From a virus (Duplodnaviria > Caudoviricetes): a stretch of DNA of 51,237 nt. The stretch lies in the IMG/VR virus record IMGVR_UViG_3300017912_002743, positions 1 to 51,237 of that record, one strand, 5' to 3'. Positions within the stretch are counted from its first letter, which is position 1, and the number at the start of each line of letters is the position of its first letter. A program made the position numbers and the translations under genes. This document shows, in pieces, positions 19,119-46,906 of this stretch. The notes beneath the pieces were generated by a model. That model ran no database searches, was not told the DNA's origin, and saw nothing but the letters and a program-made list of their open reading frames with translations.

Positions 19119-20162
19119 ATGTCAACACTTACAACTCGTTCAGGTAAAGGCTCTCCACTTACTAACACAGAAGTAGATAGTAACTTTACCAATCTAAACA
19201 CCGATAAGTATCAAAGCGGTGATGATATTGTTGTTGATGATATTACGGTATCAGGTAGATTTATTGTTGGTGTTGATGCTTCAGTAACTGCTGCAGGCAC
19301 AACACAAGGTGATGCAACAGCTTTAACAAAAACATATAACATTATTAATACAGCAAGTGCGAACCAAGGGGTAAAACTTTTAGACGCATCTACTGGTACA
19401 CGTGTAACTATATTTAACTCTACTGCAAATACAGTAAAAATTTATCCATATACTGGTGAGTCTATCAATGACCTTTCAGCCAATGCTGCACTTTCACTTG
19501 GTCCAGAAAAAGGTCGTGACTTTATTGCTGTGTCAGCAACTCAATGGCAATCCACTGACGAAGGTGATGCAGTTGTTGCAACTACTTTAACTGCAACAGG
19601 TCTAGCATCTCTTGATGGTGGTATTGATGTTGATTCTGCATTTACAGTAGCTGATTCAACAGGTAACGTCGCCACGACAGGAACTTTAACAGTAGATGGT
19701 CTAGCATCTCTTGATGGTGGTATTGATGTAAACGGTTCAAACTTTACTGTTGCAACCACAGGTAACATAGCAACTGCTGGTGACTTGAGTGTAACAGGAG
19801 CAACTACTCTTTCAGGAGATTTGAAATACGGTATCACTGCAGCAGTAACTTCAGCTGGTTCTGATCAGGGTGATGCAACTGCACTTACAGAAACAATTAA
19901 CATTGTTAGTTCTTCAACTGCTGGTCAGGGTGTAAAACTGAAAGCAGCTGCAACAGGATTAAGAGTAGAAATTTATAACACAACGGCGAATGATATCAAA
20001 GTCTATCCTAATACTTCTGATACAATTGATGGTGGGTCTGCAAATGCTGCAAAAGACTTACCAGCCAAAACATCTATGGTTTTGGTATGTAAAGACGCTA
20101 CAAACTGGGAAGTATTAAGACCAATAGCAATTTATGGTTCAAACGGCGACTTGTTAAACTAA
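19119..20162 (+). CDS. Fibre-like structural protein with duplicated domain
   Basis: N-terminus TLTTRSGKGSPLTNTEVDSNFTNLNTDK is a common fibre-attachment motif; two copies of VTxAG..QGDATALT..NI..QGVKL..G.RV.I.N.TAN..K.YP. Confidence 0.7.
   Translation: MSTLTTRSGKGSPLTNTEVDSNFTNLNTDKYQSGDDIVVDDITVSGRFIVGVDASVTAAGTTQGDATALTKTYNIINTASANQGVKLLDASTGTRVTIFNSTANTVKIYPYTGESINDLSANAALSLGPEKGRDFIAVSATQWQSTDEGDAVVATTLTATGLASLDGGIDVDSAFTVADSTGNVATTGTLTVDGLASLDGGIDVNGSNFTVATTGNIATAGDLSVTGATTLSGDLKYGITAAVTSAGSDQGDATALTETINIVSSSTAGQGVKLKAAATGLRVEIYNTTANDIKVYPNTSDTIDGGSANAAKDLPAKTSMVLVCKDATNWEVLRPIAIYGSNGDLLN
19599..19729 (+). repeat. Exact 32-nt direct repeat (19599-19630 and 19698-19729)
   Basis: ggtctagcatctcttgatggtggtattgatgt twice, 99 nt apart; encodes GLASLDGGIDV. 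Confidence 0.9.
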
Positions 20163-20172
20163 GGATTTTATT

Positions 20173-21255
20173 ATGGCTGGTCCAATAAGAATAGAAGGTA
20201 CTACAGACTCAGAAGGAAATAACTACGAAGGTGGTGTTCGTGAGATGACCACCACTGAGTTGACTACAACTACTGCTAATCTGATCACAACAAAATATGC
20301 CAGTGTAGATGGAACCGCTTCTCTGAGATTAAGAACTTCAGGCAGTGTCCCTTCTGGTTTTACTGATATTGGTTCATTTACAGACAGAAAAAGAAACGAT
20401 GCAGTTGGTACACACCCAACAGACGGAGCATCAACAACTGTAAACACTTATACAATCGCAATGGGTACTACTGCAGATAGTGGTTCTCACGAAAGACCAG
20501 TAAGAGTAAATGCTGATGGCGATTTACTTGAGATGACAGATGCTGAGATCGATACTGAAGTTTGCGATCCAATTATTGCAGCTATGGTTGCAGGCAATAC
20601 AAATACAGCAGGTCTTTATTACCTATCAGCTTCTGCTCCATCAGGTGGTACGTGGACAAGCAGAGGAACTATTTCTGACACACAAGTAGACGGAACTACC
20701 GTAACAAAAACACTTTGGCAAAAAACTGCAGCAACCACTACACATACTCTTCAAACATTCGAGAGTTTAGTTAAAAAACCAGATGATCAATCTTTACAAG
20801 CGATGTCAACAGCTGAAGTTGAAGCATTATATGCACCTTTTGTAAACAGAATTCAAGACGCCACAGGTTTACAAATTGGCTCATATGACTTTGAAACATC
20901 TACTACAGGCTTATCTGGAACTTGGCAACAGCAAGGTGAAACGATGACTGATCAGATGAAAGACACAGCAACTTATGCATACGCTGGTTCTTACACTGGG
21001 TCATATACAGGTTATTATGACGGAACATATTCTGGTACATATGATGGAACATATGCAGGAACTTATGCAGCATCTTTTAGTGGATATTCTGGAACAGCAT
21101 ATACTGGATCTTATACAGGTTCATATACTGGTGCATATACTGGTGCATATGCAGGATCTTATTCAGGAACATACACAGGTTATTATGATGGTGTGACTAT
21201 CATCAGTACTTCAAGTTCTCAGGAAACTAAAAAACTGTTTGTTAAAATTGGATAA
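20173..21255 (+). CDS. Putative virion protein with C-terminal Tyr-x-Gly-x repeats
   Basis: 360 aa, Thr/Ser/Gly-rich, co-oriented with tail genes; three internal modules (..EM[TS]..E) and a YxGx array. Confidence 0.7.
   Translation: MAGPIRIEGTTDSEGNNYEGGVREMTTTELTTTTANLITTKYASVDGTASLRLRTSGSVPSGFTDIGSFTDRKRNDAVGTHPTDGASTTVNTYTIAMGTTADSGSHERPVRVNADGDLLEMTDAEIDTEVCDPIIAAMVAGNTNTAGLYYLSASAPSGGTWTSRGTISDTQVDGTTVTKTLWQKTAATTTHTLQTFESLVKKPDDQSLQAMSTAEVEALYAPFVNRIQDATGLQIGSYDFETSTTGLSGTWQQQGETMTDQMKDTATYAYAGSYTGSYTGYYDGTYSGTYDGTYAGTYAASFSGYSGTAYTGSYTGSYTGAYTGAYAGSYSGTYTGYYDGVTIISTSSSQETKKLFVKIG
20974..21192 (+). repeat. 12-nt-period coding repeat (YxG[STAY]), about 16 units
   Basis: YAGSYTGSYTGYYDGTYSGTYDGTYAGTYAAS-FSGYSGTA-YTGSYTGSYTGAYTGAYAGSYSGTYTGYYDG. 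Confidence 0.9.
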
Positions 21256-21287
21256 ATAAAAATATATAAATTTATTATGGAGTAATT

Positions 21288-21740
21288 ATGGACGTTATTG
21301 CAACCTCAAACGACGAAATCAAACCACTATGGAAAGATCCTATCTGGAAAGATAAGGATAATAGACGTATGGTCGCCAGAAGATTAACTGGTACTGGCGA
21401 ATATGCGGTTGTTCATATTGATGCATCTGGTGGTGTCAATAAAGATTTCGATGAAATCCTAGAAACCTTTGGCGAAGAAAAGTTAGACGAACTAACAGCC
21501 AAACATAAGGAAGAGCAAATCAGACAAGAGCAGATTCATCGCGAAAGAGTTGAAGCCGATCAAACCAGACGTAAACAAGAAACTCTTTTCAATATGAAAC
21601 TCGAAGCGTTTGAAATCGAAGAAATCAAAACCTCACAAAATAGAGATTTAAAGAAACGTCTTAGAAAGGCAAAGTCGCCAATCGAAATCCAAGCATTTGC
21701 AACCCTGTTGATACAGGAAGCATTGGCGAATGCAGAGTAA
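21288..21740 (+). CDS. Hypothetical protein (helical C-terminus; possible assembly chaperone)
   Basis: 150 aa, GGAG RBS; overlaps the following GT gene. Confidence 0.7.
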   Translation: MDVIATSNDEIKPLWKDPIWKDKDNRRMVARRLTGTGEYAVVHIDASGGVNKDFDEILETFGEEKLDELTAKHKEEQIRQEQIHRERVEADQTRRKQETLFNMKLEAFEIEEIKTSQNRDLKKRLRKAKSPIEIQAFATLLIQEALANAE

Positions 21741-22440
21741 TGGATTTGTTTACGTTGCTTCAGTAAATAAACAATTCTATTATGCAGCACTACATAGTGC
21801 ACAATCTCTTTTAGATTTTTATCCCGAAGCAAAGATTACTTTGTTCACTCATAAAACGTGGGTGTGTGATGAAGCACGTGAAATATTTGATCAGATTATA
21901 ACTGACGGTGTTCCGAATCATATAAGAGCAAAACTTTGGGCACTATCTAAATCTCCATACGATACAACTCTTTATATTGATTGTGATACTACTATCCAAA
22001 GCGAAGAAATATCAGAGGTTTTCGATTTACTCGGAGACAATGATATAATTTTTACAAGGAATCGTCCATACAACGCAAAGATTACCAAGCTATCTGAAAC
22101 AGAAGAAATGATTTATCATTGTGGTTTGTTTCTTTACAACACAAAAACCACTAAAGATTTGATGGATAGTTGGTACACAGGATATCTAGAACAAAACGAT
22201 CCGCGTTGGGATCCTTCTCCATACCCTGAAGAAGTTAGAAAATGGGACACATTTACTATGTGGAATCTATTGACTAATGGCAATTTTCAGGTTAAAGTAG
22301 GAGAGTTTCCTGCACCAGATGCAAAGTGGAACTTTGTAAACGGATATAAAGAAGATGAATTGATGGGCGAGGAAATAGTTATACAACATTATACAATAGC
22401 ACACACGAAGCTGATGACAAATGAAGTTTATAGACCTTAA
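21730..22440 (+). CDS. GT-A fold glycosyltransferase (GT8/nucleotide-diphospho-sugar transferase-like)
   Basis: GFVYVAS start, RAKLWALSKSPYDTTLYIDCD (DxD), HCGLFLY, WDTFTMW, WNF, IQHY. Confidence 0.75.
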   Translation: MQSNGFVYVASVNKQFYYAALHSAQSLLDFYPEAKITLFTHKTWVCDEAREIFDQIITDGVPNHIRAKLWALSKSPYDTTLYIDCDTTIQSEEISEVFDLLGDNDIIFTRNRPYNAKITKLSETEEMIYHCGLFLYNTKTTKDLMDSWYTGYLEQNDPRWDPSPYPEEVRKWDTFTMWNLLTNGNFQVKVGEFPAPDAKWNFVNGYKEDELMGEEIVIQHYTIAHTKLMTNEVYRP

Positions 22441-23029
22441 TAAAGAAATATTAGAAATCCTCGAGGAACATAGAAAGTGGTTCTTCGATCAAGATTTGTC
22501 AGAACTATATGTTGATCAGAAAGGCGACTCAAATGCTCTTTATGCATCGTCAAGAGAATATCTTGATTTGATGTTACAGAAGCCAATGGGAAAAGAAAAA
22601 GGTCAACACGCTGGTCCACCAGAGTTAATACGCAATGTTTACTTTGGTGTGGGTGCAAGATCTCCTGATAAATTCAAAAAAGAATCTGAAAGTTTTAATG
22701 ATAAACTTGTTAAGTTTTTAGGGGCAAGACATAGTGCTGTCCACGTTTACTATCCAGAAGATGGGTATATGGGGTGGCACAATAACTGGGATGTTCCTGG
22801 ATTTAATATTCTATTTAATTACAGTAACGGCGATGGATGGTTTCATTATCTTGAGGGAAACGAGATAAAGAAAATGATAGACCCAAAAGGTTGGTCAGCG
22901 AAAGTAGGATATTATGGTGGACAAGACGATCCGTTTTGGCATTGTGCAGGTGGTGGTCCAAGAATTACACTCGGTTTTGTTATTCCTGATCAGAGTATGT
23001 GGGAAATGATGGTTGAGGATATTACTTAA
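22421..23029 (+). CDS. 2OG-Fe(II) oxygenase-like / cupin protein
   Basis: YYPEDGYMGWHNN ... FWHCA ... RITLGF resembles the DSBH HxD..H..R layout (Asn in place of Asp). Confidence 0.55.
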   Translation: MKFIDLNKEILEILEEHRKWFFDQDLSELYVDQKGDSNALYASSREYLDLMLQKPMGKEKGQHAGPPELIRNVYFGVGARSPDKFKKESESFNDKLVKFLGARHSAVHVYYPEDGYMGWHNNWDVPGFNILFNYSNGDGWFHYLEGNEIKKMIDPKGWSAKVGYYGGQDDPFWHCAGGGPRITLGFVIPDQSMWEMMVEDIT

Positions 23030-23485: not shown

Positions 23486-24157
23486 TTATTCTTTTGAGCC
23501 AATGACCATAAAGCGATCGTACTTCTTTTGCCCATCCCACGAATAGTATGTTTGTTCTATTTGTCCTTCATAGAATATCTCATCTAAACCGATTTGCTCG
23601 GTTAAATCTTTTACTGAATTGACACAGTTGATACCATACATCTCTTCAATAACATTACTATTCTGACAAGCAAACAATGCCATTGGGTTTCTTGTTGTAA
23701 GTTCTTTCAACGGATACATCTGTTCGGTGTTGATAGCGATTACGATGTCCGCATCTATTTTATTTAACTCATCGAATGCAAACGGAATATCTAAACAATG
23801 ATGTCTAAACTTTACAAACTTCTCTTGTGCGTAATGTTTGTGTAGTATTTTAGATATATCCAACGCTTCTTTATCGAGGTCAACTAAATGTAACTCTCCG
23901 ATGTCGATATTTTCACAAAGTAAAGGAACAAGTGGCATACCCAACCAAGAGTTTAGAACTAAAACTTTCAGTTTTTCCTGCCTTGCACAGTTATCAATAT
24001 TTGTGATCAGTTCTTCTACGAGCCATGTTGCAGCTTCGACATGGTTTGCCTCGTGACATTGGCGTAAGTCGGTAAGTTTATGTGGTGCTTTTTGTTCGAT
24101 GAAATATAATGCTTCACCATAGAACTTAAAATTATTTAGAAAATTAGATTTTAACAT
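23486..24157 (-). CDS. Class I SAM-dependent methyltransferase-like protein
   Basis: KVLVLNSWLG, LHLVDLD, DIVIAINTEQM, FACQNSN, CVNS, DRFMVIG; start MLKSNF overlaps upstream stop. Confidence 0.55.
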   Translation of the reverse strand: MLKSNFLNNFKFYGEALYFIEQKAPHKLTDLRQCHEANHVEAATWLVEELITNIDNCARQEKLKVLVLNSWLGMPLVPLLCENIDIGELHLVDLDKEALDISKILHKHYAQEKFVKFRHHCLDIPFAFDELNKIDADIVIAINTEQMYPLKELTTRNPMALFACQNSNVIEEMYGINCVNSVKDLTEQIGLDEIFYEGQIEQTYYSWDGQKKYDRFMVIGSKE

Positions 24158-24818
24158 CTTCACTTTTACCCATAGAGTCAAATAAACAGATATATGGCAA
24201 GTCACGATACACGTGCTTTTCAGTATCTTGTGGATAGATATAACCTTGATTGAAACTATACACCCATCCTAGAGGAAACAGTTTCATCGGGACTATGTTT
24301 TTATCGCAAAGAAAATTATCAATACCGCGATATTGCCAAAGTATCTGTTGTTTATATTTATTAAAGTATTCCCACAGCTTTGCAGAGTCAAAACTATCAT
24401 TCCATCTCAGTACACTTGAGTTGATATCGCTAAATTTATGGGGAACGTGTTTTGTTTCTTCGCGCATACGATCGAGATCGTGCCACCAAGTCTTTACAAT
24501 ACCCAAACAATCCTCTGGTTCAAAATTTTCAAATGCTGTGATGTCGTGTTGTATTAGGATATCAAGGTCAAAGAAAAGTTTTTCTCCTTTCTGATCAACC
24601 AAAGGCGAAAACAAATACATTTTGTTCCACCATTTTTCTAAATCATTATACTTAGGAATCAAGATAGGTTCAATGAAATCCTCTAATCCTTCTGGGTCAT
24701 CAGTTATACAATACATCTGACGATTCTCTTCTGGAAAATCAGAGCAAATATCATATGCAATTTTATTTACATATTCAGAGGAGTATTTGTCTCCCCATTT
24801 TACTGTGTATATGTTCAT
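24144..24818 (-). CDS. GT-A glycosyltransferase, KWGxKY family
   Basis: MNIYTVKWGDKYSSEYVNK, CITDD, WWNKMYLF, FFDLDILI (DxD), NSSVLRW, GIDNFL; ATGA overlap with upstream gene. Confidence 0.8.
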   Translation of the reverse strand: MNIYTVKWGDKYSSEYVNKIAYDICSDFPEENRQMYCITDDPEGLEDFIEPILIPKYNDLEKWWNKMYLFSPLVDQKGEKLFFDLDILIQHDITAFENFEPEDCLGIVKTWWHDLDRMREETKHVPHKFSDINSSVLRWNDSFDSAKLWEYFNKYKQQILWQYRGIDNFLCDKNIVPMKLFPLGWVYSFNQGYIYPQDTEKHVYRDLPYICLFDSMGKSEDVKI

Positions 24819-25402
24819 AGGTATAGCCAATCCAATCCAAATTGTTTATGTTTCTTGTAACCCATATCTAGCAATATATCCTCGCCGTTTGCCCTTTCCA
24901 ATACAATCGCAGGTTTGAAAGTGTTTATTGTACCTAACATTCCTTTGAGTGCACTTCTTTCCATACCTTCAATATCTAGGTGAATTAAATCAGGTTCTAA
25001 ATGAAATCTATCTAATGTAACCTGCAGTAATTCACCTCTTCGTTTTACTCTTGTTGCACCGCTGTTTACTCTGTCTCTCATTATACCGCATTTTCTATCT
25101 TCATTACCAAGAGCATATGGATATATTGATACATTATTATATTCTTTTAAGTTTTCTTTCAAACATTTTAGATTCCAAGCATCTGGCTCGAATGTTGCAA
25201 CTTCATTAACCACAGAGCAATATTGCCATGTGTATAAACCGCAATGTCCACCAGCTTGAATAACCATACTCACATCGCCAACTTCTTCAAGAACTTGTTG
25301 AGGAATGTCAGGGTATTGTTGTGTCAGATGCCTCCATGCGTGGTGGTCATCAACTGTCCATAGCCAGTCTTTACCTCTCCAAAATCTTGTTTCGTAATTC
25401 AT
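24815..25402 (-). CDS. FkbM-family methyltransferase
   Basis: VIQAGGHCGLY, TFEPD..N..CLKEN, YALG, TLD, DLIHLDIEGME..ALKG...TI..FKPAIVLE. Confidence 0.85.
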   Translation of the reverse strand: MNYETRFWRGKDWLWTVDDHHAWRHLTQQYPDIPQQVLEEVGDVSMVIQAGGHCGLYTWQYCSVVNEVATFEPDAWNLKCLKENLKEYNNVSIYPYALGNEDRKCGIMRDRVNSGATRVKRRGELLQVTLDRFHLEPDLIHLDIEGMERSALKGMLGTINTFKPAIVLERANGEDILLDMGYKKHKQFGLDWLYL

Positions 25403-25766
25403 TGCTACTAAATCTGTGTTGACGTTTATTGTAATAAATTTCTATTCCCATATCCTTGCCAGTAAAATCTTTATCTCTATATTCTTCGCCGATAATTCTT
25501 ATGTCAATTGGATACAATTCTAAAATATCTAATAGTTCTCTTTCAGTTGAATATGGTATAATTTCGTCTACATACTTTACTGCTTTCAGTTGTGTATATC
25601 GTTCAACGATATTCTGTGCAGGTTTATTTTTCTCTTTTCTTTCCCATCTAGGGTTAAAATGTAATCCACATATTAAATAATCGCATTGTTGTTTTGCTTC
25701 TTGCAACATAATAACGTGACCAGTGTGCAGTAAATCAAATGCGCTTGCAGTAAATCCTATCTTCAT
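25371..25766 (-). CDS. Cytidylyltransferase (TagD / glycerol-3-phosphate CTase-like)
   Basis: GFTASAFDLLHTGH (HxGH), DYLICGL, KP...ERY.QL.AVKYVDEIIPY, RQHRFSSNELR. Confidence 0.88.
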   Translation of the reverse strand: MKIGFTASAFDLLHTGHVIMLQEAKQQCDYLICGLHFNPRWERKEKNKPAQNIVERYTQLKAVKYVDEIIPYSTERELLDILELYPIDIRIIGEEYRDKDFTGKDMGIEIYYNKRQHRFSSNELRNKILER

Positions 25767-26563
25767 TTCCAGTGTTCTAATAGTTTTGGGTCGACTAATT
25801 CGTCTTGTTTTGTTGTACCTCGCGATGCATCTTCAAAGGGAAGAAGGTCGACATTAAATACGCAGAGGATACAATTCTCTCTATAAATTCCTACATTTAA
25901 ATCATCTTCATCCCAAGAGCGACCACGATTATACGAGTATGCCATCCAACTTGGAAAATAATCCCATAGTTCTTTCCAACGCCAACTATGGTAATTATCA
26001 GTTCCGTCTGTAAACGTAAACCAGATTTTTTCTTGGTGTTTCAATACGTCTTTCCATATTGGTTCGCATTGGTCATCACTCCATACTTGACAACTGCCAT
26101 TGGTAAATGCACCATGTGATAGTTTAAATCTTCTACTATTCATAGGTCTAGGATCTTGCCACCAAGAACGCATCTTTGTAGGTTGTTCCATATTGTAAGT
26201 AATTATAGGAGTCAGATCGTTTTGGATTATTACATCAAGATCTAGAAAGACGAACCGACCAGTAGGTTTGTCATCGGCGAAATTATGGGTGTTAAAAACG
26301 AAAGTTTTTGCGCGATCCCAACAACGAGCCATTCCGTACTTAAAATCATCCAAACCAAACCAATACTTAGGATGGATGTTCGGAATATCTGGAAAGGGGA
26401 TAACTTTAATATCAGATTGAAGACCAGTATCATCATCAGTGTAACAATAGAAGTGTACGTCAAACTGATCAGGGCAGTTCCTACGAGCCATATTACAAAG
26501 TCTGTTGACAAAGTGTGCACCATACTTTGTGCCCCATTTAGCACATACAAAATTTACACGCAT
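25763..26563 (-). CDS. GT-A glycosyltransferase, KWGxKY family
   Basis: MRVNFVCAKWGTKYGAHFVNRL, CYTDD, HPKYWFG, CWDRAK, FLDLDVII, NGSCQVW, GTDNYH. Confidence 0.8.
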   Translation of the reverse strand: MRVNFVCAKWGTKYGAHFVNRLCNMARRNCPDQFDVHFYCYTDDDTGLQSDIKVIPFPDIPNIHPKYWFGLDDFKYGMARCWDRAKTFVFNTHNFADDKPTGRFVFLDLDVIIQNDLTPIITYNMEQPTKMRSWWQDPRPMNSRRFKLSHGAFTNGSCQVWSDDQCEPIWKDVLKHQEKIWFTFTDGTDNYHSWRWKELWDYFPSWMAYSYNRGRSWDEDDLNVGIYRENCILCVFNVDLLPFEDASRGTTKQDELVDPKLLEHWK

Positions 26564-27942
26564 CTTCCACAAGTCTCTTTACAAATTTTCAAATGGTCTT
26601 TTTTTAGACTATCATTATAACATTCAAAGTCCGCATTATATACAATTTCCTTTAATGGAAAGGACTTCGCGTTATTATATTTAGGATTGTACGGATAGTC
26701 TATTGGATGGAGAGGGTAAAGTCTATTCTCTAAAATATCTCTCGCGATATATGAACAAGGGAAAACTTGTCCTTTTGCATTGATGTAAACCATATTTTCG
26801 TTTCTGGCTTCACAATCAATCACCCATTTTTCTTCTTTTGCAACATTCCTATATTCTTCTTTTTGTTTAAATTTCTTAATGTTTTCTCTCGTTACGTGCT
26901 CAGGTCTCTCTACAAAGTCAGGTATATTTAAAACATCACACGGTTCATTATCATCCATCGCTGGAATCATTACTTGACTTCCTTGTTGTTCAAACCACTC
27001 TATGATTTTTATATAATCTTTACAACGACTCGGTTTAGAAAGCGTATGTAAAAAAGTTACATATTCAGGTGGGTCTTGGAATATTCTTTTTATGTCTTGC
27101 AATGTAAGTTCGTCATCTTCAACAAATATATCGTTGAACGAGTTTCCTGTGTCATTGTGTTTATTAGATAATTCTAGTACAACGCGAGTAGGAAAATCTT
27201 TATACATATCATACTTACCATACCAGTGATTGAGAAGTATAGAATCTTCTAACTGGTCTATTGATATTGTATCTTCTCCCTCTATCATATTTTGATTGAA
27301 CAGAGCGAGTTTTGCATCATAATCTGTATCTTGATAGTTGTAACTATAATACCATTCATGCGGTAAGAAGTTCCAGAACTCAGTTCCTGCTGGTCTACGC
27401 CATTGGTGGTAATTATCTGAACCCTTATAGAATGTTTTGAATGTATCTGGATTCTCTATCACATCTTCATATATTTTTTTCGGCTGATCAGACCACCACA
27501 TCATACAACTGGAGTTAAAATATGTTCCTCGTATATCTCTAAATCTTCTTAATTTGAGTTGCCCTTCAGGTTGCCAGTGTGAATATAAGATATGTGGTTT
27601 AAATGCAAGGTCATAAAACTCGTCAATAGAGTCTTGAATAATAACATCAAGGTCAAAGTAACAGAATGGTCCAGTCGTTGCAAGCCATTCTTCCGCATTA
27701 AACAATAAAAATTTAGAACGATCCCAGCAATAGTTCTCCTCTCCGAACCAATACTTTGGATGAAGTGGTTTTATATCAGGAATGGGATGTACTTCTACTT
27801 CTTCGCGAATGCCTTCTGGCTCGTCTGTGAAACAAACCATACGAAACTGATTGACATAATTGGCGTCAATCATTCCATATAGATTATTTACATAATCAGG
27901 AGAGTATTTTTCACCCCACTTTATCGTTAGAAAAGTGAGTAT
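26554..27942 (-). CDS. Glycosyltransferase fused to degenerate radical-SAM/SPASM-like domain; probable ATA start
   Basis: Frame extends 23 codons upstream of the track ATG as (ATA)LTFLTIKWGEKYSPDYVNNLYG; YFDLDVII; C-terminal IDCEA..YINAKGQVFPC..CKETC. Confidence 0.72.
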   Translation of the reverse strand: MLTFLTIKWGEKYSPDYVNNLYGMIDANYVNQFRMVCFTDEPEGIREEVEVHPIPDIKPLHPKYWFGEENYCWDRSKFLLFNAEEWLATTGPFCYFDLDVIIQDSIDEFYDLAFKPHILYSHWQPEGQLKLRRFRDIRGTYFNSSCMMWWSDQPKKIYEDVIENPDTFKTFYKGSDNYHQWRRPAGTEFWNFLPHEWYYSYNYQDTDYDAKLALFNQNMIEGEDTISIDQLEDSILLNHWYGKYDMYKDFPTRVVLELSNKHNDTGNSFNDIFVEDDELTLQDIKRIFQDPPEYVTFLHTLSKPSRCKDYIKIIEWFEQQGSQVMIPAMDDNEPCDVLNIPDFVERPEHVTRENIKKFKQKEEYRNVAKEEKWVIDCEARNENMVYINAKGQVFPCSYIARDILENRLYPLHPIDYPYNPKYNNAKSFPLKEIVYNADFECYNDSLKKDHLKICKETCGRCV

Positions 27943-28603
27943 AGTAATCAGTCCTCAAATCAAAATTATGTCGATCCTGACCATTCAACAAACAAATTGT
28001 TGGGTCAGGTCTGTATTTTCTGCCACGCGGACTTACATCCGTTTCGTGGTCAATTCCATACATATAAGAGTATAACACTCCTTTTTCATATGTATCAAAG
28101 TCATTTTTATGCTCGTGGAATAAGTATTTATCATCACAACCCTTATATTCTCTTATCCATTTGTATGGATTTTCGTTGAAGTGTTTTTTGATTTTAACAC
28201 CTTGAAATCCTCTCCAAGCCATTACACTTGAATTGAAATCACCACCGCCATGTTCAGATTCGAAACCATCGTGTTTCCACCACGTTTTACAAATCTTTAA
28301 GTTTTCAGTGAATAAATCCCAGACTTTTTCTGGTTTTTGTATTACCACGTCTAAATCTAAATATAATGATTGTCCCCAGTCTTGACCCAAGATATTTACT
28401 TTCTCGAATGTTCCAAGTTCTGAGTCTGCCCATCGCAAATTAATTTCAGGATAAAGACCTTCATCACGAAGGCGTTCACCCTGATCAGTATGACAAACAT
28501 AACGGTATTGGAAACCTTCTCCAATGCCTATTGTAGAAGCAATCCGATTCACGTCATCGAAATTATACTTGTCACCATATAATAATGTATGTATTGTAAG
28601 CAT
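27911..28603 (-). CDS. GT-A glycosyltransferase, same family
   Basis: MLTIHTLLYGDKY, CHTD, EKVNIL, LYLDLDVVI, FNSSVMAW, GCDDKYL, ICLLNG. Confidence 0.8.
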   Translation of the reverse strand: MLTIHTLLYGDKYNFDDVNRIASTIGIGEGFQYRYVCHTDQGERLRDEGLYPEINLRWADSELGTFEKVNILGQDWGQSLYLDLDVVIQKPEKVWDLFTENLKICKTWWKHDGFESEHGGGDFNSSVMAWRGFQGVKIKKHFNENPYKWIREYKGCDDKYLFHEHKNDFDTYEKGVLYSYMYGIDHETDVSPRGRKYRPDPTICLLNGQDRHNFDLRTDYYTHFSNDKVG

Positions 28604-28613
28604 AGCAATCTAT

Positions 28614-28642
28614 ATATTACCTTAATATTTGTAATAAGTCAA
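28614..28642 (-). promoter_or_regulatory. Sigma70-type promoter for the minus-strand GT operon
   Basis: TTGACT (28642-28637) - 17 nt - TAATAT (28619-28614); ATG 10 nt downstream, no SD. Confidence 0.65.
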
Positions 28643-28646
28643 GTCT

Positions 28647-28654
28647 TATAAATA
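28647..28654 (+). promoter_or_regulatory. T4-type late promoter
   Basis: Exact TATAAATA, divergent from the GT operon promoter. Confidence 0.8.
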
Positions 28655-28675
28655 AGAGCAAAAGGAGTAAAATTA

Positions 28676-29002
28676 ATGGCAACTCAACAAAATATAGTAA
28701 TTGATCAGGGAACAACATTCTCTACGACAGTCACTGCCAAAGATAGCACAGGTTCAGCAAAAGATCTGACTGGCTATACAACAACCGCACAAATAAGAAA
28801 AAGCTATTACAGTTCGTCATCCACAGATTTTACTACCGCGCAAGTAGACGGTACAGGTGTTATCACACTATCATTAACCGCAGCCCAGACAGGAAATTTA
28901 AAAGCAGGAAGATACGTTTATGACGTTGAATCTGCTTCAGCATCCGAAACAATAAGAGTTGTTGAAGGAATTGTTACAGTTACACCCCAAGTGACGAAAT
29001 AA
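28676..29002 (+). CDS. Small Ig-like/BppU-like virion protein
   Basis: NIVIDQGTTFS, DLTGY..AQIRKSY, G.ITLSLTA.QT..L.AGRYVYDVE, RVVEGIVTVTPQVT; AAGGAG RBS. Confidence 0.75.
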   Translation: MATQQNIVIDQGTTFSTTVTAKDSTGSAKDLTGYTTTAQIRKSYYSSSSTDFTTAQVDGTGVITLSLTAAQTGNLKAGRYVYDVESASASETIRVVEGIVTVTPQVTK

Positions 29003-29003
29003 T

Positions 29004-29127
29004 GTGGGCGAGTTGCGCATAACTCTGGCAGTAGTGCGCTGAAGCTGACAACCTCGAGGGACATATGTTAAGGGCAGAAGATAAGCCAAGCCAGTCATAA
29101 CATAGTCATCAGCAAATCCTCGCCCAC
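29004..29127 (+). ncRNA. Candidate structured non-coding RNA of unknown class
   Basis: 9-bp closing stem GTGGGCGAG/CTCGCCCAC, several internal stems and a CTGGC/GCCAG loop pairing; GC-rich in AT-rich context; no credible ORF. Confidence 0.6.
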
Positions 29128-29143
29128 TCCCACTTCAAACTCT

Positions 29144-29151
29144 TATAAATA
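29144..29151 (+). promoter_or_regulatory. T4-type late promoter for gp13
   Basis: Exact TATAAATA, intergenic. Confidence 0.8.
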
Positions 29152-29190
29152 GTGACATAGACTTAACAATATTAACAAACAGGGGTTTAG

Positions 29191-30150
29191 ATGGCTCTAT
29201 CAACTAGACAAGAACTTATAGATTACTGCCTCAGAAGATTAGGATTCCCTGTAATCGAAATCAATGTAGATGACGATCAAGTAAGCGATCGTGTCGATGA
29301 CGCCATACAATTATGGCAAGAACATCACTTTGATGGTGTCGAGCGTGTATATATTAAGAAAGCACTCGAAGGATCGACATTAAATCTTTCTTCATCTGCT
29401 ACATTTAATGCAGGAGAAACGATTACAGGTGGAACATCAGGCGCAAAAGCTATTGTAGATAAAAGCAGTTCTGGCACAAAAGTAATTTATGAAAACGTAT
29501 CAACCGTAGAAAAGTTTGAAGCAAACGAAGTTATTACAGGCGAAGACTCTGGCGTAACTGCTACAATCAGTTCTATCGTAAAAGGAAATATCGAAAACGG
29601 ATATATTGCAATCGCAGATAATATTCTTGGTGTTACAAGAATGTTTAAGTTCGGTGGTGTTGGCTCAACATCAAACTCAGATGGCTTATTCGATATTGAT
29701 TATCAATTCGCACAAAACGATCTTTACAATCTATTGGCTGCTGATGTAACATATTATTCAATGGTCAAAACACATATGAATGTGCTTGAAAGTCTTTTCG
29801 TGAACGACCGAGCAATTAGATTTAACAGAAAAACAAACAAACTTTATATTGACACCGATATGGATAGAACTTTCAATATCGGAGATTATGTCGTTGCAGA
29901 GGGATATGCTCTCGTAGCAGGCACAGATTACGCTGAAGTCTACGATGACATGTGGCTCAAAAAATATACTACTGCTCTGATCAAGAGACAGTGGGGAGAA
30001 AATATGAAGAAGTTTGGTGGTATTCAACTTCCTGGAGGTGTGACATTAAATGGTGATCAGATTTACGGCGAAGCGGTTCAAGAAATTGCACAAATAGAAG
30101 AAGAGATGCAAAACAGATACGAACTGCCACCTACATTTATGACAGGCTAA
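29191..30150 (+). CDS. gp13: Neck protein gp13
   Basis: TRQELIDYCLRRLGFPVIEINVDDDQ, HFDG, WLKKYTTALIKRQWGENMKKF.GIQLPGGVTLNG. Confidence 0.93.
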   Translation: MALSTRQELIDYCLRRLGFPVIEINVDDDQVSDRVDDAIQLWQEHHFDGVERVYIKKALEGSTLNLSSSATFNAGETITGGTSGAKAIVDKSSSGTKVIYENVSTVEKFEANEVITGEDSGVTATISSIVKGNIENGYIAIADNILGVTRMFKFGGVGSTSNSDGLFDIDYQFAQNDLYNLLAADVTYYSMVKTHMNVLESLFVNDRAIRFNRKTNKLYIDTDMDRTFNIGDYVVAEGYALVAGTDYAEVYDDMWLKKYTTALIKRQWGENMKKFGGIQLPGGVTLNGDQIYGEAVQEIAQIEEEMQNRYELPPTFMTG

Positions 30151-46294: not shown

Positions 46295-46906
46295 ATGGCA
46301 AAAAGAAGAGATCCAAACAGTCGACACTATGTTGACAATAAAGAATTCCTAGCTGCGATAACGGAATATCGCGAGAAGGTTCTAGCTGCAAAGAAAGCAG
46401 GGGAGGACAAACCTCGTGTGACTGAGTATCTCGGCGAATGCATGGTAAAAATTGCAAATCACTTAGCATATAAATCCAATTTTGTAAATTATACTTTCAG
46501 AGATGAAATGATTCTCGACGGTATCGAAAACTGCATCACATATATTGATAACTTCGATCCAGAGAAATCTAAAAATCCTTTTGCATACTTTACACAGATT
46601 ACATACTATGCATTTATTAGACGTATCCAGAAAGAGAAAAAGCAGATGGATACGAAGAAAAAATATATCGGAAGTTTAGACATTCAAGAACTTCTAGACT
46701 CTAGTGCAGATGGTAATGAGCACAACTCTGAATATCTCGATTATATTCGTAAGGCAGTTGATGAGTCTGCATCCCTAGAAGAAAAATTCACTGATCAGAA
46801 ATCAAAACTTAAAAAGCGTAGACCGAAATATCTTGATGATAAAGAGGCATTGAAAATGGCTAAAGAAAAAAGTGAAGTCATGAAGACTAAGGTTGAGAGT
46901 AAATAA
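46295..46906 (+). CDS. gp55: Late-transcription sigma factor gp55
   Basis: HYVDNKEFL, YLGEC.VKIA.HL..K.NF.NY.FRDEMI.DGIENC..YI.NFDPEKSKNPFAYFTQI.YYAFIRRIQKEKKQ. Confidence 0.96.
   Translation: MAKRRDPNSRHYVDNKEFLAAITEYREKVLAAKKAGEDKPRVTEYLGECMVKIANHLAYKSNFVNYTFRDEMILDGIENCITYIDNFDPEKSKNPFAYFTQITYYAFIRRIQKEKKQMDTKKKYIGSLDIQELLDSSADGNEHNSEYLDYIRKAVDESASLEEKFTDQKSKLKKRRPKYLDDKEALKMAKEKSEVMKTKVESK

What the first reader, a model, noticed from the sequence alone, without database searches (positions are those of the whole stretch)
29004..29132. Pseudoknotted multi-stem RNA candidate upstream of the neck/terminase genes
Seen: P1 29004-12/29119-27 (9 bp). Hairpin 29015-24/29030-39 (one G-U, one mismatch) presents a 5-nt loop CUGGC exactly complementary to GCCAG at 29090-94, a possible kissing loop or pseudoknot. 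P3 GCTGA 29044-48/TCAGC 29109-13; P4 GAC-a-TATGTTA 29060-70/TAACATA-GTC 29098-107; small GGC/GCC hairpin 29073-87; 3' tail TCCCA. The G-U pair favours the plus strand, downstream of the late promoter at 28647. I do not recognise it as tRNA, tmRNA, 6S, SRP or a known riboswitch. Inference: an undescribed late ncRNA. Loose analogies are T4 stable RNAs C/D or the three-way junction with interlocking loops of phi29 pRNA; it could also be a ribozyme or processing element.
Basis: partly seen in the sequence, partly recalled or inferred. Interest (0 to 1): 0.78.

Follow-up and report, generated by a model that had tools for sequence, protein, structure and literature searches.

The report
Phage RNA born inside fibre gene
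In an uncultured marine T4-like phage, a 130-base stretch predicted to fold into a multi-stem RNA is all that is left of a tail-fibre-like gene that close relatives still carry whole, and paired base changes keep its stems intact, so it is likely a new non-coding RNA caught at its birth from inside a protein gene, possibly acting as a decoy for a host protein.

Summary
The new result is their origin. In 11 of 14 related loci that span this slot, a fibre-like gene lies between the 108-aa LtfC-like gene and gp13. The window's element is homologous (E 1.6e-16) to codons ~260-305 of that gene. About 790 nt upstream and 635 nt downstream are gone, with breakpoints within ~10 nt of the P1 ends. Relatives show three states: coding without the fold (20-21/30 core pairs), coding with it (27-30/30), and non-coding with frame-breaking indels. 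Five pairs change on both sides, and G-U intermediates occur. The CUGGC/GCCAG pseudoknot is possible but shows no two-sided change. gp13 has its own late-promoter motif 3' of the element, so a link to neck or terminase genes and the pRNA analogy are unsupported. The junction resembles a type III hammerhead but fails 3 of 13 core positions. A selected fold is likely (~0.8). Best mechanism: a processed stable RNA acting as a protein decoy (0.4). A discrete transcript is not shown, and only six distinct related sequences were aligned. The scan had not reported this on other DNA.

The parts
28647..28654 (+). TATAAATA, T4-type late promoter motif (consensus recalled) ahead of the 108-aa gene; likely source of the transcript that holds the element
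   Evidence: same motif at the same place in L003, L012, L015; late sigma factor gene at 46295-46906
28676..29002 (+). 108-aa gene, phrog_1084 / LtfC-like (L-shaped tail fibre assembly); its stop codon ends 1 nt before P1
   Evidence: Pfam LtfC E 2.5e-4, below the curated cut-off
29004..29134 (+). Structured element; remnant of codons ~260-305 of a fibre-like gene that is whole in relatives
29004..29127 (+). P1, 9 bp (29004-12 with 29119-27), closes the two ends; pair 29008/29123 is A-U in coding copies, G-U in the RNA-run variant, G-C here
29015..29039 (+). P2 hairpin with loop CUGGC (29025-29); pair 29017/29037 is G-C here, A-U in coding copies and in the RNA-run variant
29044..29113 (+). 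P3 (29044-48/29109-13; a sixth pair 29049/29108 in L002 and the RNA-run variant); two pairs with two-sided changes
29052..29059 (+). 2-bp hairpin CC-UCGA-GG; kept in 5 of 6 aligned sequences, no covariation
29060..29107 (+). P4 (29060-70/29098-107), 10 bp here and 8 bp in coding copies, rebuilt by substitutions and a 2-nt insertion
29073..29097 (+). GGC (29073-75) and three possible G-Y-C acceptors (29085-87, 29090-92, 29094-96); candidate pseudoknot strand for the P2 loop, register unresolved
29144..29151 (+). Second TATAAATA, 3' of the element, ahead of gp13
29191..30150 (+). gp13-like head-tail adaptor (neck) gene; neighbour only

Best explanation
The element is a remnant of the middle of a tail-fibre-like gene whose stems are kept by paired base changes; it is likely a functional folded RNA that arose inside that coding sequence, is likely trimmed out of the late transcript as a stable ~130-nt RNA, and would act in trans, most plausibly as a decoy that binds a host (defence) protein. 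Shown: homology to the coding segment, loss of the gene on both sides, frame-breaking indels, compensatory changes, position between two late-promoter motifs. Inferred: (1) the fold was built on synonymous and tolerated amino-acid changes while the gene still coded; (2) it was kept by selection when the gene was deleted; (3) the full fold forms on untranslated or cleaved RNA, because ribosomes cross it in coding copies and a ribosome stopping 1 nt before P1 would open P1 here; (4) P1 joins the two ends, as in processed stable RNAs (recalled), and a P2-loop contact may clamp the two arms. The decoy role is the weakest step: it rests on analogy and on the element being patchy within a recombining fibre gene. 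I put about 0.8 on a selected fold and about 0.4 on this whole mechanism.
For: Origin: nhmmer E 1.6e-16 to L003:3117-3254, in frame inside a 517-aa ORF with tail-fibre PHROG hits. Breakpoints hug P1. Covariation on 6 distinct sequences: 92% of 250 cells paired, 5 of 43 pairs with two-sided changes, 0 of 500 shuffles reach the covariation score, slid controls 33-49%. RNAalifold recovers P1-P4 unaided. A variant in RNA-library contigs differs at 5 places in the element, all compatible with the fold. Coding copies L003, L343, L371 keep 30/30 core pairs and L015 27/30, against about 20 for synonymous recodings (0, 0, 0 of 20000 and P 0.0013; GC3-matched 0, 0 and 3 of 10000 for L003, L343, L015); L013 and L012 have 20 and 21 of 30, as chance. 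Simulated neutral decay of the L003 copy reached the window's energy in 9 of 400 runs and L002's in 2 of 400. No promoter or terminator of its own in the scan; different upstream DNA in coding and standalone copies.
Against: Few, related sequences; the shuffle control ignores relatedness, and 'further pair types' was not above shuffles (402 of 500). The structure was derived from these sequences, which biases the pair-count tests. Overall divergence window-L003 (27 substitutions, ~21%) is no lower than 4-fold sites of gp13 (19%). Window-L002 conservation (2/129) equals that of adjacent intergenic DNA and, in one record, of the upstream gene (1.3-1.7%). At fixed alignment columns the substitution test is modest (236 and 523 of 10000; L343 to L015 3426 of 10000). 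Coding copies L003 and L015 are not significant against dinucleotide shuffles (z -1.42, -1.32), L003 is 13 of 200 against GC3-matched recodings, and the consensus fold lies 3.3, 1.6, 1.6 and 11.4 kcal/mol above the free minimum in L003, L343, L371, L015. L015 has lost 3 of 9 P1 pairs. Both junctions show short microhomology (by eye). L012 and L013 lack the fold, so it is dispensable. No RNA ends, strand or partner are shown.
Confidence: 0.4

Rival explanations
1. Cis-acting 3' barrier: the fold stays on the mRNA and blocks 3'-5' exonucleases, raising the level of the upstream LtfC-like cistron relative to what follows.
For: Sits right after the stop codon. Near-identical RNA-library contigs in 5 of 8 runs laid cover only 28706-29210.
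Against: One hairpin would do, yet four helices are maintained. In coding copies it would leave stop-less fibre mRNA. The runs were chosen by words from 28600-29400, depth is 2-4, and they may hold DNA.
Confidence: 0.2
2. Neutral remnant: a chance fold in a GC-richer coding patch, left between two microhomology-guided deletions and now decaying.
For: Divergence not below neutral gp13 sites; microhomology at both junctions; the unstructured protein sequence already gives ~20/30 pairs; narrow distribution.
Against: 13 substitutions fall in paired columns between L003 and L002, yet each helix is as long or longer after re-registering; the 5 differences of the RNA-run variant all fit; neutral-decay simulation 2-9 of 400.
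Confidence: 0.12
3. The fold acts on single-stranded DNA (recombination, replication or packaging signal) rather than RNA.
For: The same helices are predicted with DNA parameters (-22.9 kcal/mol); the fibre gene is highly mosaic.
Against: One-sided changes are mostly G-U on the + strand, which suits RNA; no other copy in the window.
Confidence: 0.08
4. The fold arose as a -1 frameshift or pausing signal in the fibre gene and was later co-opted or is lingering.
For: Coding copies have two Lys codons (N-AAA-AAR) 6 nt before P1, the geometry of bacterial -1 signals such as IS911 and dnaX (recalled).
Against: Unstructured alleles have the same codons; none has the A-AAA-AAG heptamer; the window has a stop codon there and still shows compensation.
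Confidence: 0.07
5. A self-cleaving ribozyme with type III hammerhead geometry and a rewired core, cutting 3' of 29015 to process the late mRNA.
For: The order of stems and a loop-loop contact match type III; with hammerhead numbering laid on the junction the window meets 10 of 13 consensus positions (consensus from PMC3088659), and that paper reports hammerheads flanking prophage genes.
Against: A9, A13 and H17 are not met in any of 6 sequences; G12 is A in L015 and its pair covaries as a normal pair; A14 is G in all 4 coding copies; CUGAAG is also in unstructured L012/L013 as Leu-Lys codons; no Rfam hammerhead hit; I chose the register after the fact.
Confidence: 0.06

Closest known systems
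OxyS, an sRNA that arose from a peroxidase gene (PMC8825220; abstract and Discussion read)
   Same: A fragment of a protein-coding gene kept as RNA after the rest was deleted, at the same locus and under the parental promoter.
   Different: OxyS came from the 3' end with a terminator, in bacteria, and is little like its parent. Here it is the middle of the gene (the rarest class there, 10 of 62), in a phage, with a multi-junction fold, and unstructured-coding, structured-coding and non-coding alleles coexist. Function here is untested.
cabRNA of staphylococcal phages (PMC10686824; passages read)
   Same: A structured phage RNA transcribed from within virion-assembly coding sequence.
   Different: cabRNA (~400 nt or under 50 nt) comes from terS/terL and activates CBASS; the passages read give no case of one kept after its gene was lost. 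No sequence comparison was made.
Pseudo-ToxI RNAs of phage PhiTE (PMC3475682; abstract read)
   Same: Precedent for a phage non-coding RNA that works as a decoy against host defence.
   Different: Those are tandem repeats mimicking a known antitoxin; this is single-copy and resembles no Rfam family.
Type III hammerhead ribozyme (PMC3088659; passages read)
   Same: Three-way junction with the open stem at the ends and a possible base-paired contact between the other two arms.
   Different: Core fails at A9, A13, H17, where ordinary pairs form instead; an extra three-way junction in the long arm.
phi29 pRNA and T4 RNAs C/D (recalled, not tested by alignment beyond Rfam)
   Same: Small structured phage RNAs.
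   Different: No Rfam match; no tRNA cluster in the window; no link to the terminase beyond lying 2.8 kb upstream.

Membership tests
Any Rfam 15 family (riboswitches, ribozymes, SRP, 6S, RNase P, phage motifs) | Match to the covariance model | tested here: not met
   No match over the element at E<=5, over three coding copies at E<=10, or at gathering score
tRNA / tmRNA | Cloverleaf or tRNA-like domain | tested here: not met
   ARAGORN 0 genes; the 3' tail derives from Thr-Pro-Thr codons
Hammerhead ribozyme | Three stems around a junction, type III order | tested here: met
   P1/P2/P3 order
Hammerhead ribozyme | Core C3 U4 G5 A6 N7 G8 A9 G12 A13 A14 A15 U16 H17 | tested here: not met
   10 of 13 in window and L002; A9, A13, H17 fail in 6 of 6
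Hammerhead ribozyme | Tertiary contact between the stem I and stem II arms | tested here: inconclusive
   Two possible registers, 83% and 100% of cells paired, no two-sided change
Hammerhead ribozyme | Self-cleavage | not testable with these tools
   Needs an in vitro assay
ncRNA derived from a protein-coding gene (OxyS route) | Homology to coding sequence of a gene at the same locus in relatives | tested here: met
ncRNA derived from a protein-coding gene (OxyS route) | Loss of coding capacity | tested here: met
   Start and stop regions gone; indels of -1, +2 and -8 nt in the alignment
ncRNA derived from a protein-coding gene (OxyS route) | Selection on the RNA | tested here: met
   Compensatory changes, on few related sequences
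ncRNA derived from a protein-coding gene (OxyS route) | Discrete transcript with a function | tested here: inconclusive
   Only low-depth contigs from RNA libraries; ends and strand not shown
Intrinsic terminator | GC hairpin followed by a U run | tested here: not met
   0 found in 28500-29300
Programmed -1 frameshift signal | Slippery site in an open frame 5-9 nt before the structure | tested here: not met
   In the window the frame ends at a stop 1 nt before P1; in coding copies only Lys-Lys codons, shared with unstructured alleles
Packaging RNA (pRNA) | Oligomeric ring on the portal needed for packaging | not testable with these tools
   No supporting link found; dispensable in L012/L013, whose gp13 is 98% identical in DNA to that of structured L015

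The most novel reading that the evidence does not exclude
A new class of phage RNA, with its own pseudoknotted two-junction fold, evolved de novo inside a tail-fibre reading frame, spreads between fibre alleles by recombination, and outlived its host gene because it neutralises a host protein or cleaves RNA with a new core. All stages of its birth still exist in ocean populations.
Probability: 0.3. Interest if true: 0.87.

Novelty: new variant of a known kind. Interest (0 to 1): 0.7.

Why it matters
How new structured RNAs arise is hard to study because intermediates are usually lost. Here three stages sit side by side: coding without the fold, coding with it, and fold without the gene. They can be synthesised and compared directly, which makes the question testable. 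It also suggests that phage RNAs can hide inside coding sequence, where a screen seeded from intergenic DNA (PMC10690425, section 4.2) would not start. If it is a decoy, it points to an unknown host defence in marine bacteria.

Tried and rejected
Rfam by E-value and gathering score: nothing on the element. blastn of the element against 50,697 annotated phage records: only 27-33 nt chance matches; tblastn of the L003 fibre protein there: no match. Pattern scans: 17 hits; only L082, L086, L097 homologous; 68 hits, 5 homologous; gap length set wrong, missed the known copies, uninformative; 77 hits, 5 homologous; 6 hits, 5 homologous; 38 hits in bacterial and archaeal genomes, none matched the model. 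Model R1 found no distant member: 99 sources, 85 sources, 46 whole records (7 with a match, all this clade, plus one weak second hit at E 0.008), 45 sources. R1 is sequence-heavy, so distant structural analogues could be missed, and most records are fragments. RNA ends: contigs in X4 and X6 stop at 29129 and 29135, but X4's loose end is the reverse complement of a loose end in X2 (likely adapter) and X1 runs on to 29210, so this is not evidence. SAM-I, cobalamin, lysine, twister, pistol and HDV-like folds were considered from memory and dropped, as Rfam gave no hit. The two - strand ORFs (28918-29064, 28937-29098) span the deletion junction, so they cannot be ancestral. Host not determined: best terminase matches are ~48-50% (Pelagibacter phage Mosig, cyanophages). 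Not in print as far as searched: searches returned 0 papers; searches listed none on this element by title or abstract start; word and contig-id searches of the PMC10690425 supplements found nothing, but files 1 and 2 could not be searched, file 4 may be cut, and they may hold a model of it.

Full report
Setting. The window is a fragment (32% complete) of an uncultured T4-like phage: baseplate, neck, terminase, head and late-sigma genes. The best terminase matches are about 48-50% to Pelagibacter phage Mosig and cyanophages, so the host is unknown. The element lies between a 108-aa phrog_1084/LtfC-like gene (stop ends at 29002) and gp13 (29191). TATAAATA, recalled as the T4 late promoter, occurs at 28647 and at 29144. 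The element is therefore the trailer of the first unit and not part of the leader made from gp13's own promoter.

Observation. All helices are as described. The fold is -43.5 kcal/mol, z -3.15, 0 of 200 shuffles. There is no Rfam, tRNA or tmRNA match and no terminator.

Origin. Of 80 loci kept for the 108-aa gene (576 relatives seen in an incomplete scan), 14 also reach gp13. Two have the window's arrangement. Twelve have 1.3-1.9 kb between the genes, and 11 of these show a homologue of a fibre-like gene (L079 was not tested). That gene has tail-fibre PHROG hits and no Pfam hit. The element matches L003:3117-3254 at E 1.6e-16, in frame at codons ~260-305 of the 517-aa ORF. The segment has weak protein similarity to many other fibre-like proteins, so the coding role is the older one. 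Relative to L003 the window lacks 789 nt between the stop codon and P1, and about 635 nt between P1 and the gp13 promoter. Homology starts within 1-4 nt of P1 and ends about 7 nt after it. By hand, two uniform breakpoints would both fall within 10 nt of the P1 ends about 2 times in 10,000; short microhomologies at both junctions weaken that figure. No other copy of the fibre gene is in the window.

Three states. Non-coding: window, L001 (identical element), L002, L097, L349 (two differences), and a variant in RNA-library contigs. Coding with the fold: L003 and L363, L343, L371 (30 of 30 core pairs), L015 and L394 (27 of 30). Coding without it: L012, L013 and L104 (20-21 of 30 for L012, L013), and L184, L185 (z 0.05). 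Trees of the element and of its flanks disagree (short alignments, moderate support), and sliding differences show a mosaic gene. So gain followed by spread, or gain followed by loss in L012/L013, cannot be told apart. L184, the most distant allele, lacks the fold, which favours gain.

Selection on the fold. On six distinct sequences (L012, L013, L184 left out because they lack the fold) 92% of 250 cells pair; 5 of 43 pairs change on both sides (19 of 500 shuffles); cells with two-sided change and the covariation score exceed all 500 shuffles; further pair types do not (402 of 500); slid controls give 33-49%. RNAalifold finds P1-P4 itself. Wobble intermediates are seen: P3 C-G/U-G/U-A and P4 U-A/U-G/C-G, and P1 A-U/G-U/G-C with the variant in runs X1 and X4. 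That variant differs from the window at 5 places in the element: two restore the ancestral A-U pair in P2 together (X1, X4, X5, X6), one makes the G-U, one adds a pair, one is unpaired. Coding copies pair far above synonymous recodings, and their free folding energy beats GC3-matched recodings in L343 (3 of 200) and L015 (6 of 200), less so in L003 (13 of 200), not in L013 (83 of 200). Simulated neutral decay of L003 with the observed numbers of substitutions and indels reached the window's energy in 9 of 400 runs and L002's in 2 of 400.

Against. The sequences are few and related. The element's overall divergence is not below neutral gp13 sites. The window-L002 identity is matched by neighbouring DNA. 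Fixed-column substitution tests give only P about 0.02-0.05 for the standalone copies and nothing for L343 to L015. The consensus fold is not the minimum in coding copies, and their dinucleotide z-scores are weak where tested. I put a selected fold at about 0.8.

Pseudoknot. A register 4 nt further 3' gives 4 pairs in 6 of 6 sequences. Neither has a two-sided change, and GGC at 29073-75 competes for the same bases. A loop contact is plausible but unproven.

Transcription. Six of 9 listed runs hold a small share of the region. Near-identical contigs cover 28706-29210 in X1, X2, X4, X5, X6 and part of gp13 in X3; X7 and X9 have none. Depth is 2-4, the runs were chosen with this region, three are only guessed to be RNA, and contigs cannot show ends or strand. 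This shows presence in RNA libraries only.

Mechanism. Whatever the fold does, it must work both in the middle of an ORF and just after a stop codon, with unrelated upstream DNA. That argues against recoding, translational control of gp13 and a promoter of its own (inference). Ribosomes would open P1 in both settings, so the full fold most likely exists on a cleaved or untranslated piece. An end-closing helix with a short tail is typical of processed stable RNAs (recalled). A patchy trait in a recombining fibre gene suggests host interaction, and phage RNA decoys have precedent (PMC3475682, abstract). I commit to a processed RNA acting as a protein decoy at 0.4. Rivals: cis 3' barrier 0.2, neutral remnant 0.12, ssDNA signal 0.08, frameshift origin 0.07, hammerhead-like ribozyme 0.06.

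Comparison. The route works like the origin of OxyS (PMC8825220, abstract and Discussion), but from the middle of a phage gene and with living intermediates. It resembles cabRNA (PMC10686824, passages) in lying within virion-gene coding sequence. Its main junction has type III hammerhead order and meets 10 of 13 core positions (consensus from PMC3088659 passages), but it is not a member: A9, A13 and H17 fail in all six sequences, and the matching hexamer is also present as Leu-Lys codons in unstructured alleles. The distribution is one small clade: model R1 found nothing outside it, nor did searches of annotated phages. I found no description in the searches named under Tried and rejected; two supplement files of PMC10690425 could not be read. 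Earlier findings of this scan concern the neighbouring enzyme island, not this element.

Verdict. Real, likely selected, undescribed fold; known kind of origin in a new setting; function open. Interest 0.7.

Noticed in passing
window 23486-28603 (- strand): Island of seven genes opposite to the structural genes: a methyltransferase and a heptose adenylyltransferase-like gene by PHROGs, five with no PHROG hit; earlier scan notes describe a similar island as glycosyltransferases.
   Followed up: no
window 29002-29191: This lineage has lost a fibre-like gene that relatives keep in this slot, while keeping the LtfC-like gene upstream; no other copy in the 51 kb held. It may change host range.
   Followed up: partly
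L015 versus L012: gp13 differs by 2% in DNA, but the fibre gene segment by about 20% with saturating third positions: allele exchange within one phage population.
   Followed up: partly
window 29003-29071: The frame of the 108-aa gene stays open for 22 codons past its stop and joins the old fibre frame after the 1-nt deletion (read from the sequence); probably chance.
   Followed up: no
L414 (G039:C1:23219-23355): Weak second match to model R1 (15.7 bits, E 0.008); probably noise.
   Followed up: no
L464 / L005 (G004): An allele of the fibre gene that matches only the first 199 aa of L003's and has no element; about 6.8 kb separate the 108-aa gene from gp13 there.
   Followed up: partly
window 19119-23029 (+ strand): Five consecutive ORFs (150-360 aa) after the 1995-aa gene with no PHROG match at E 1e-4.
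   Followed up: no
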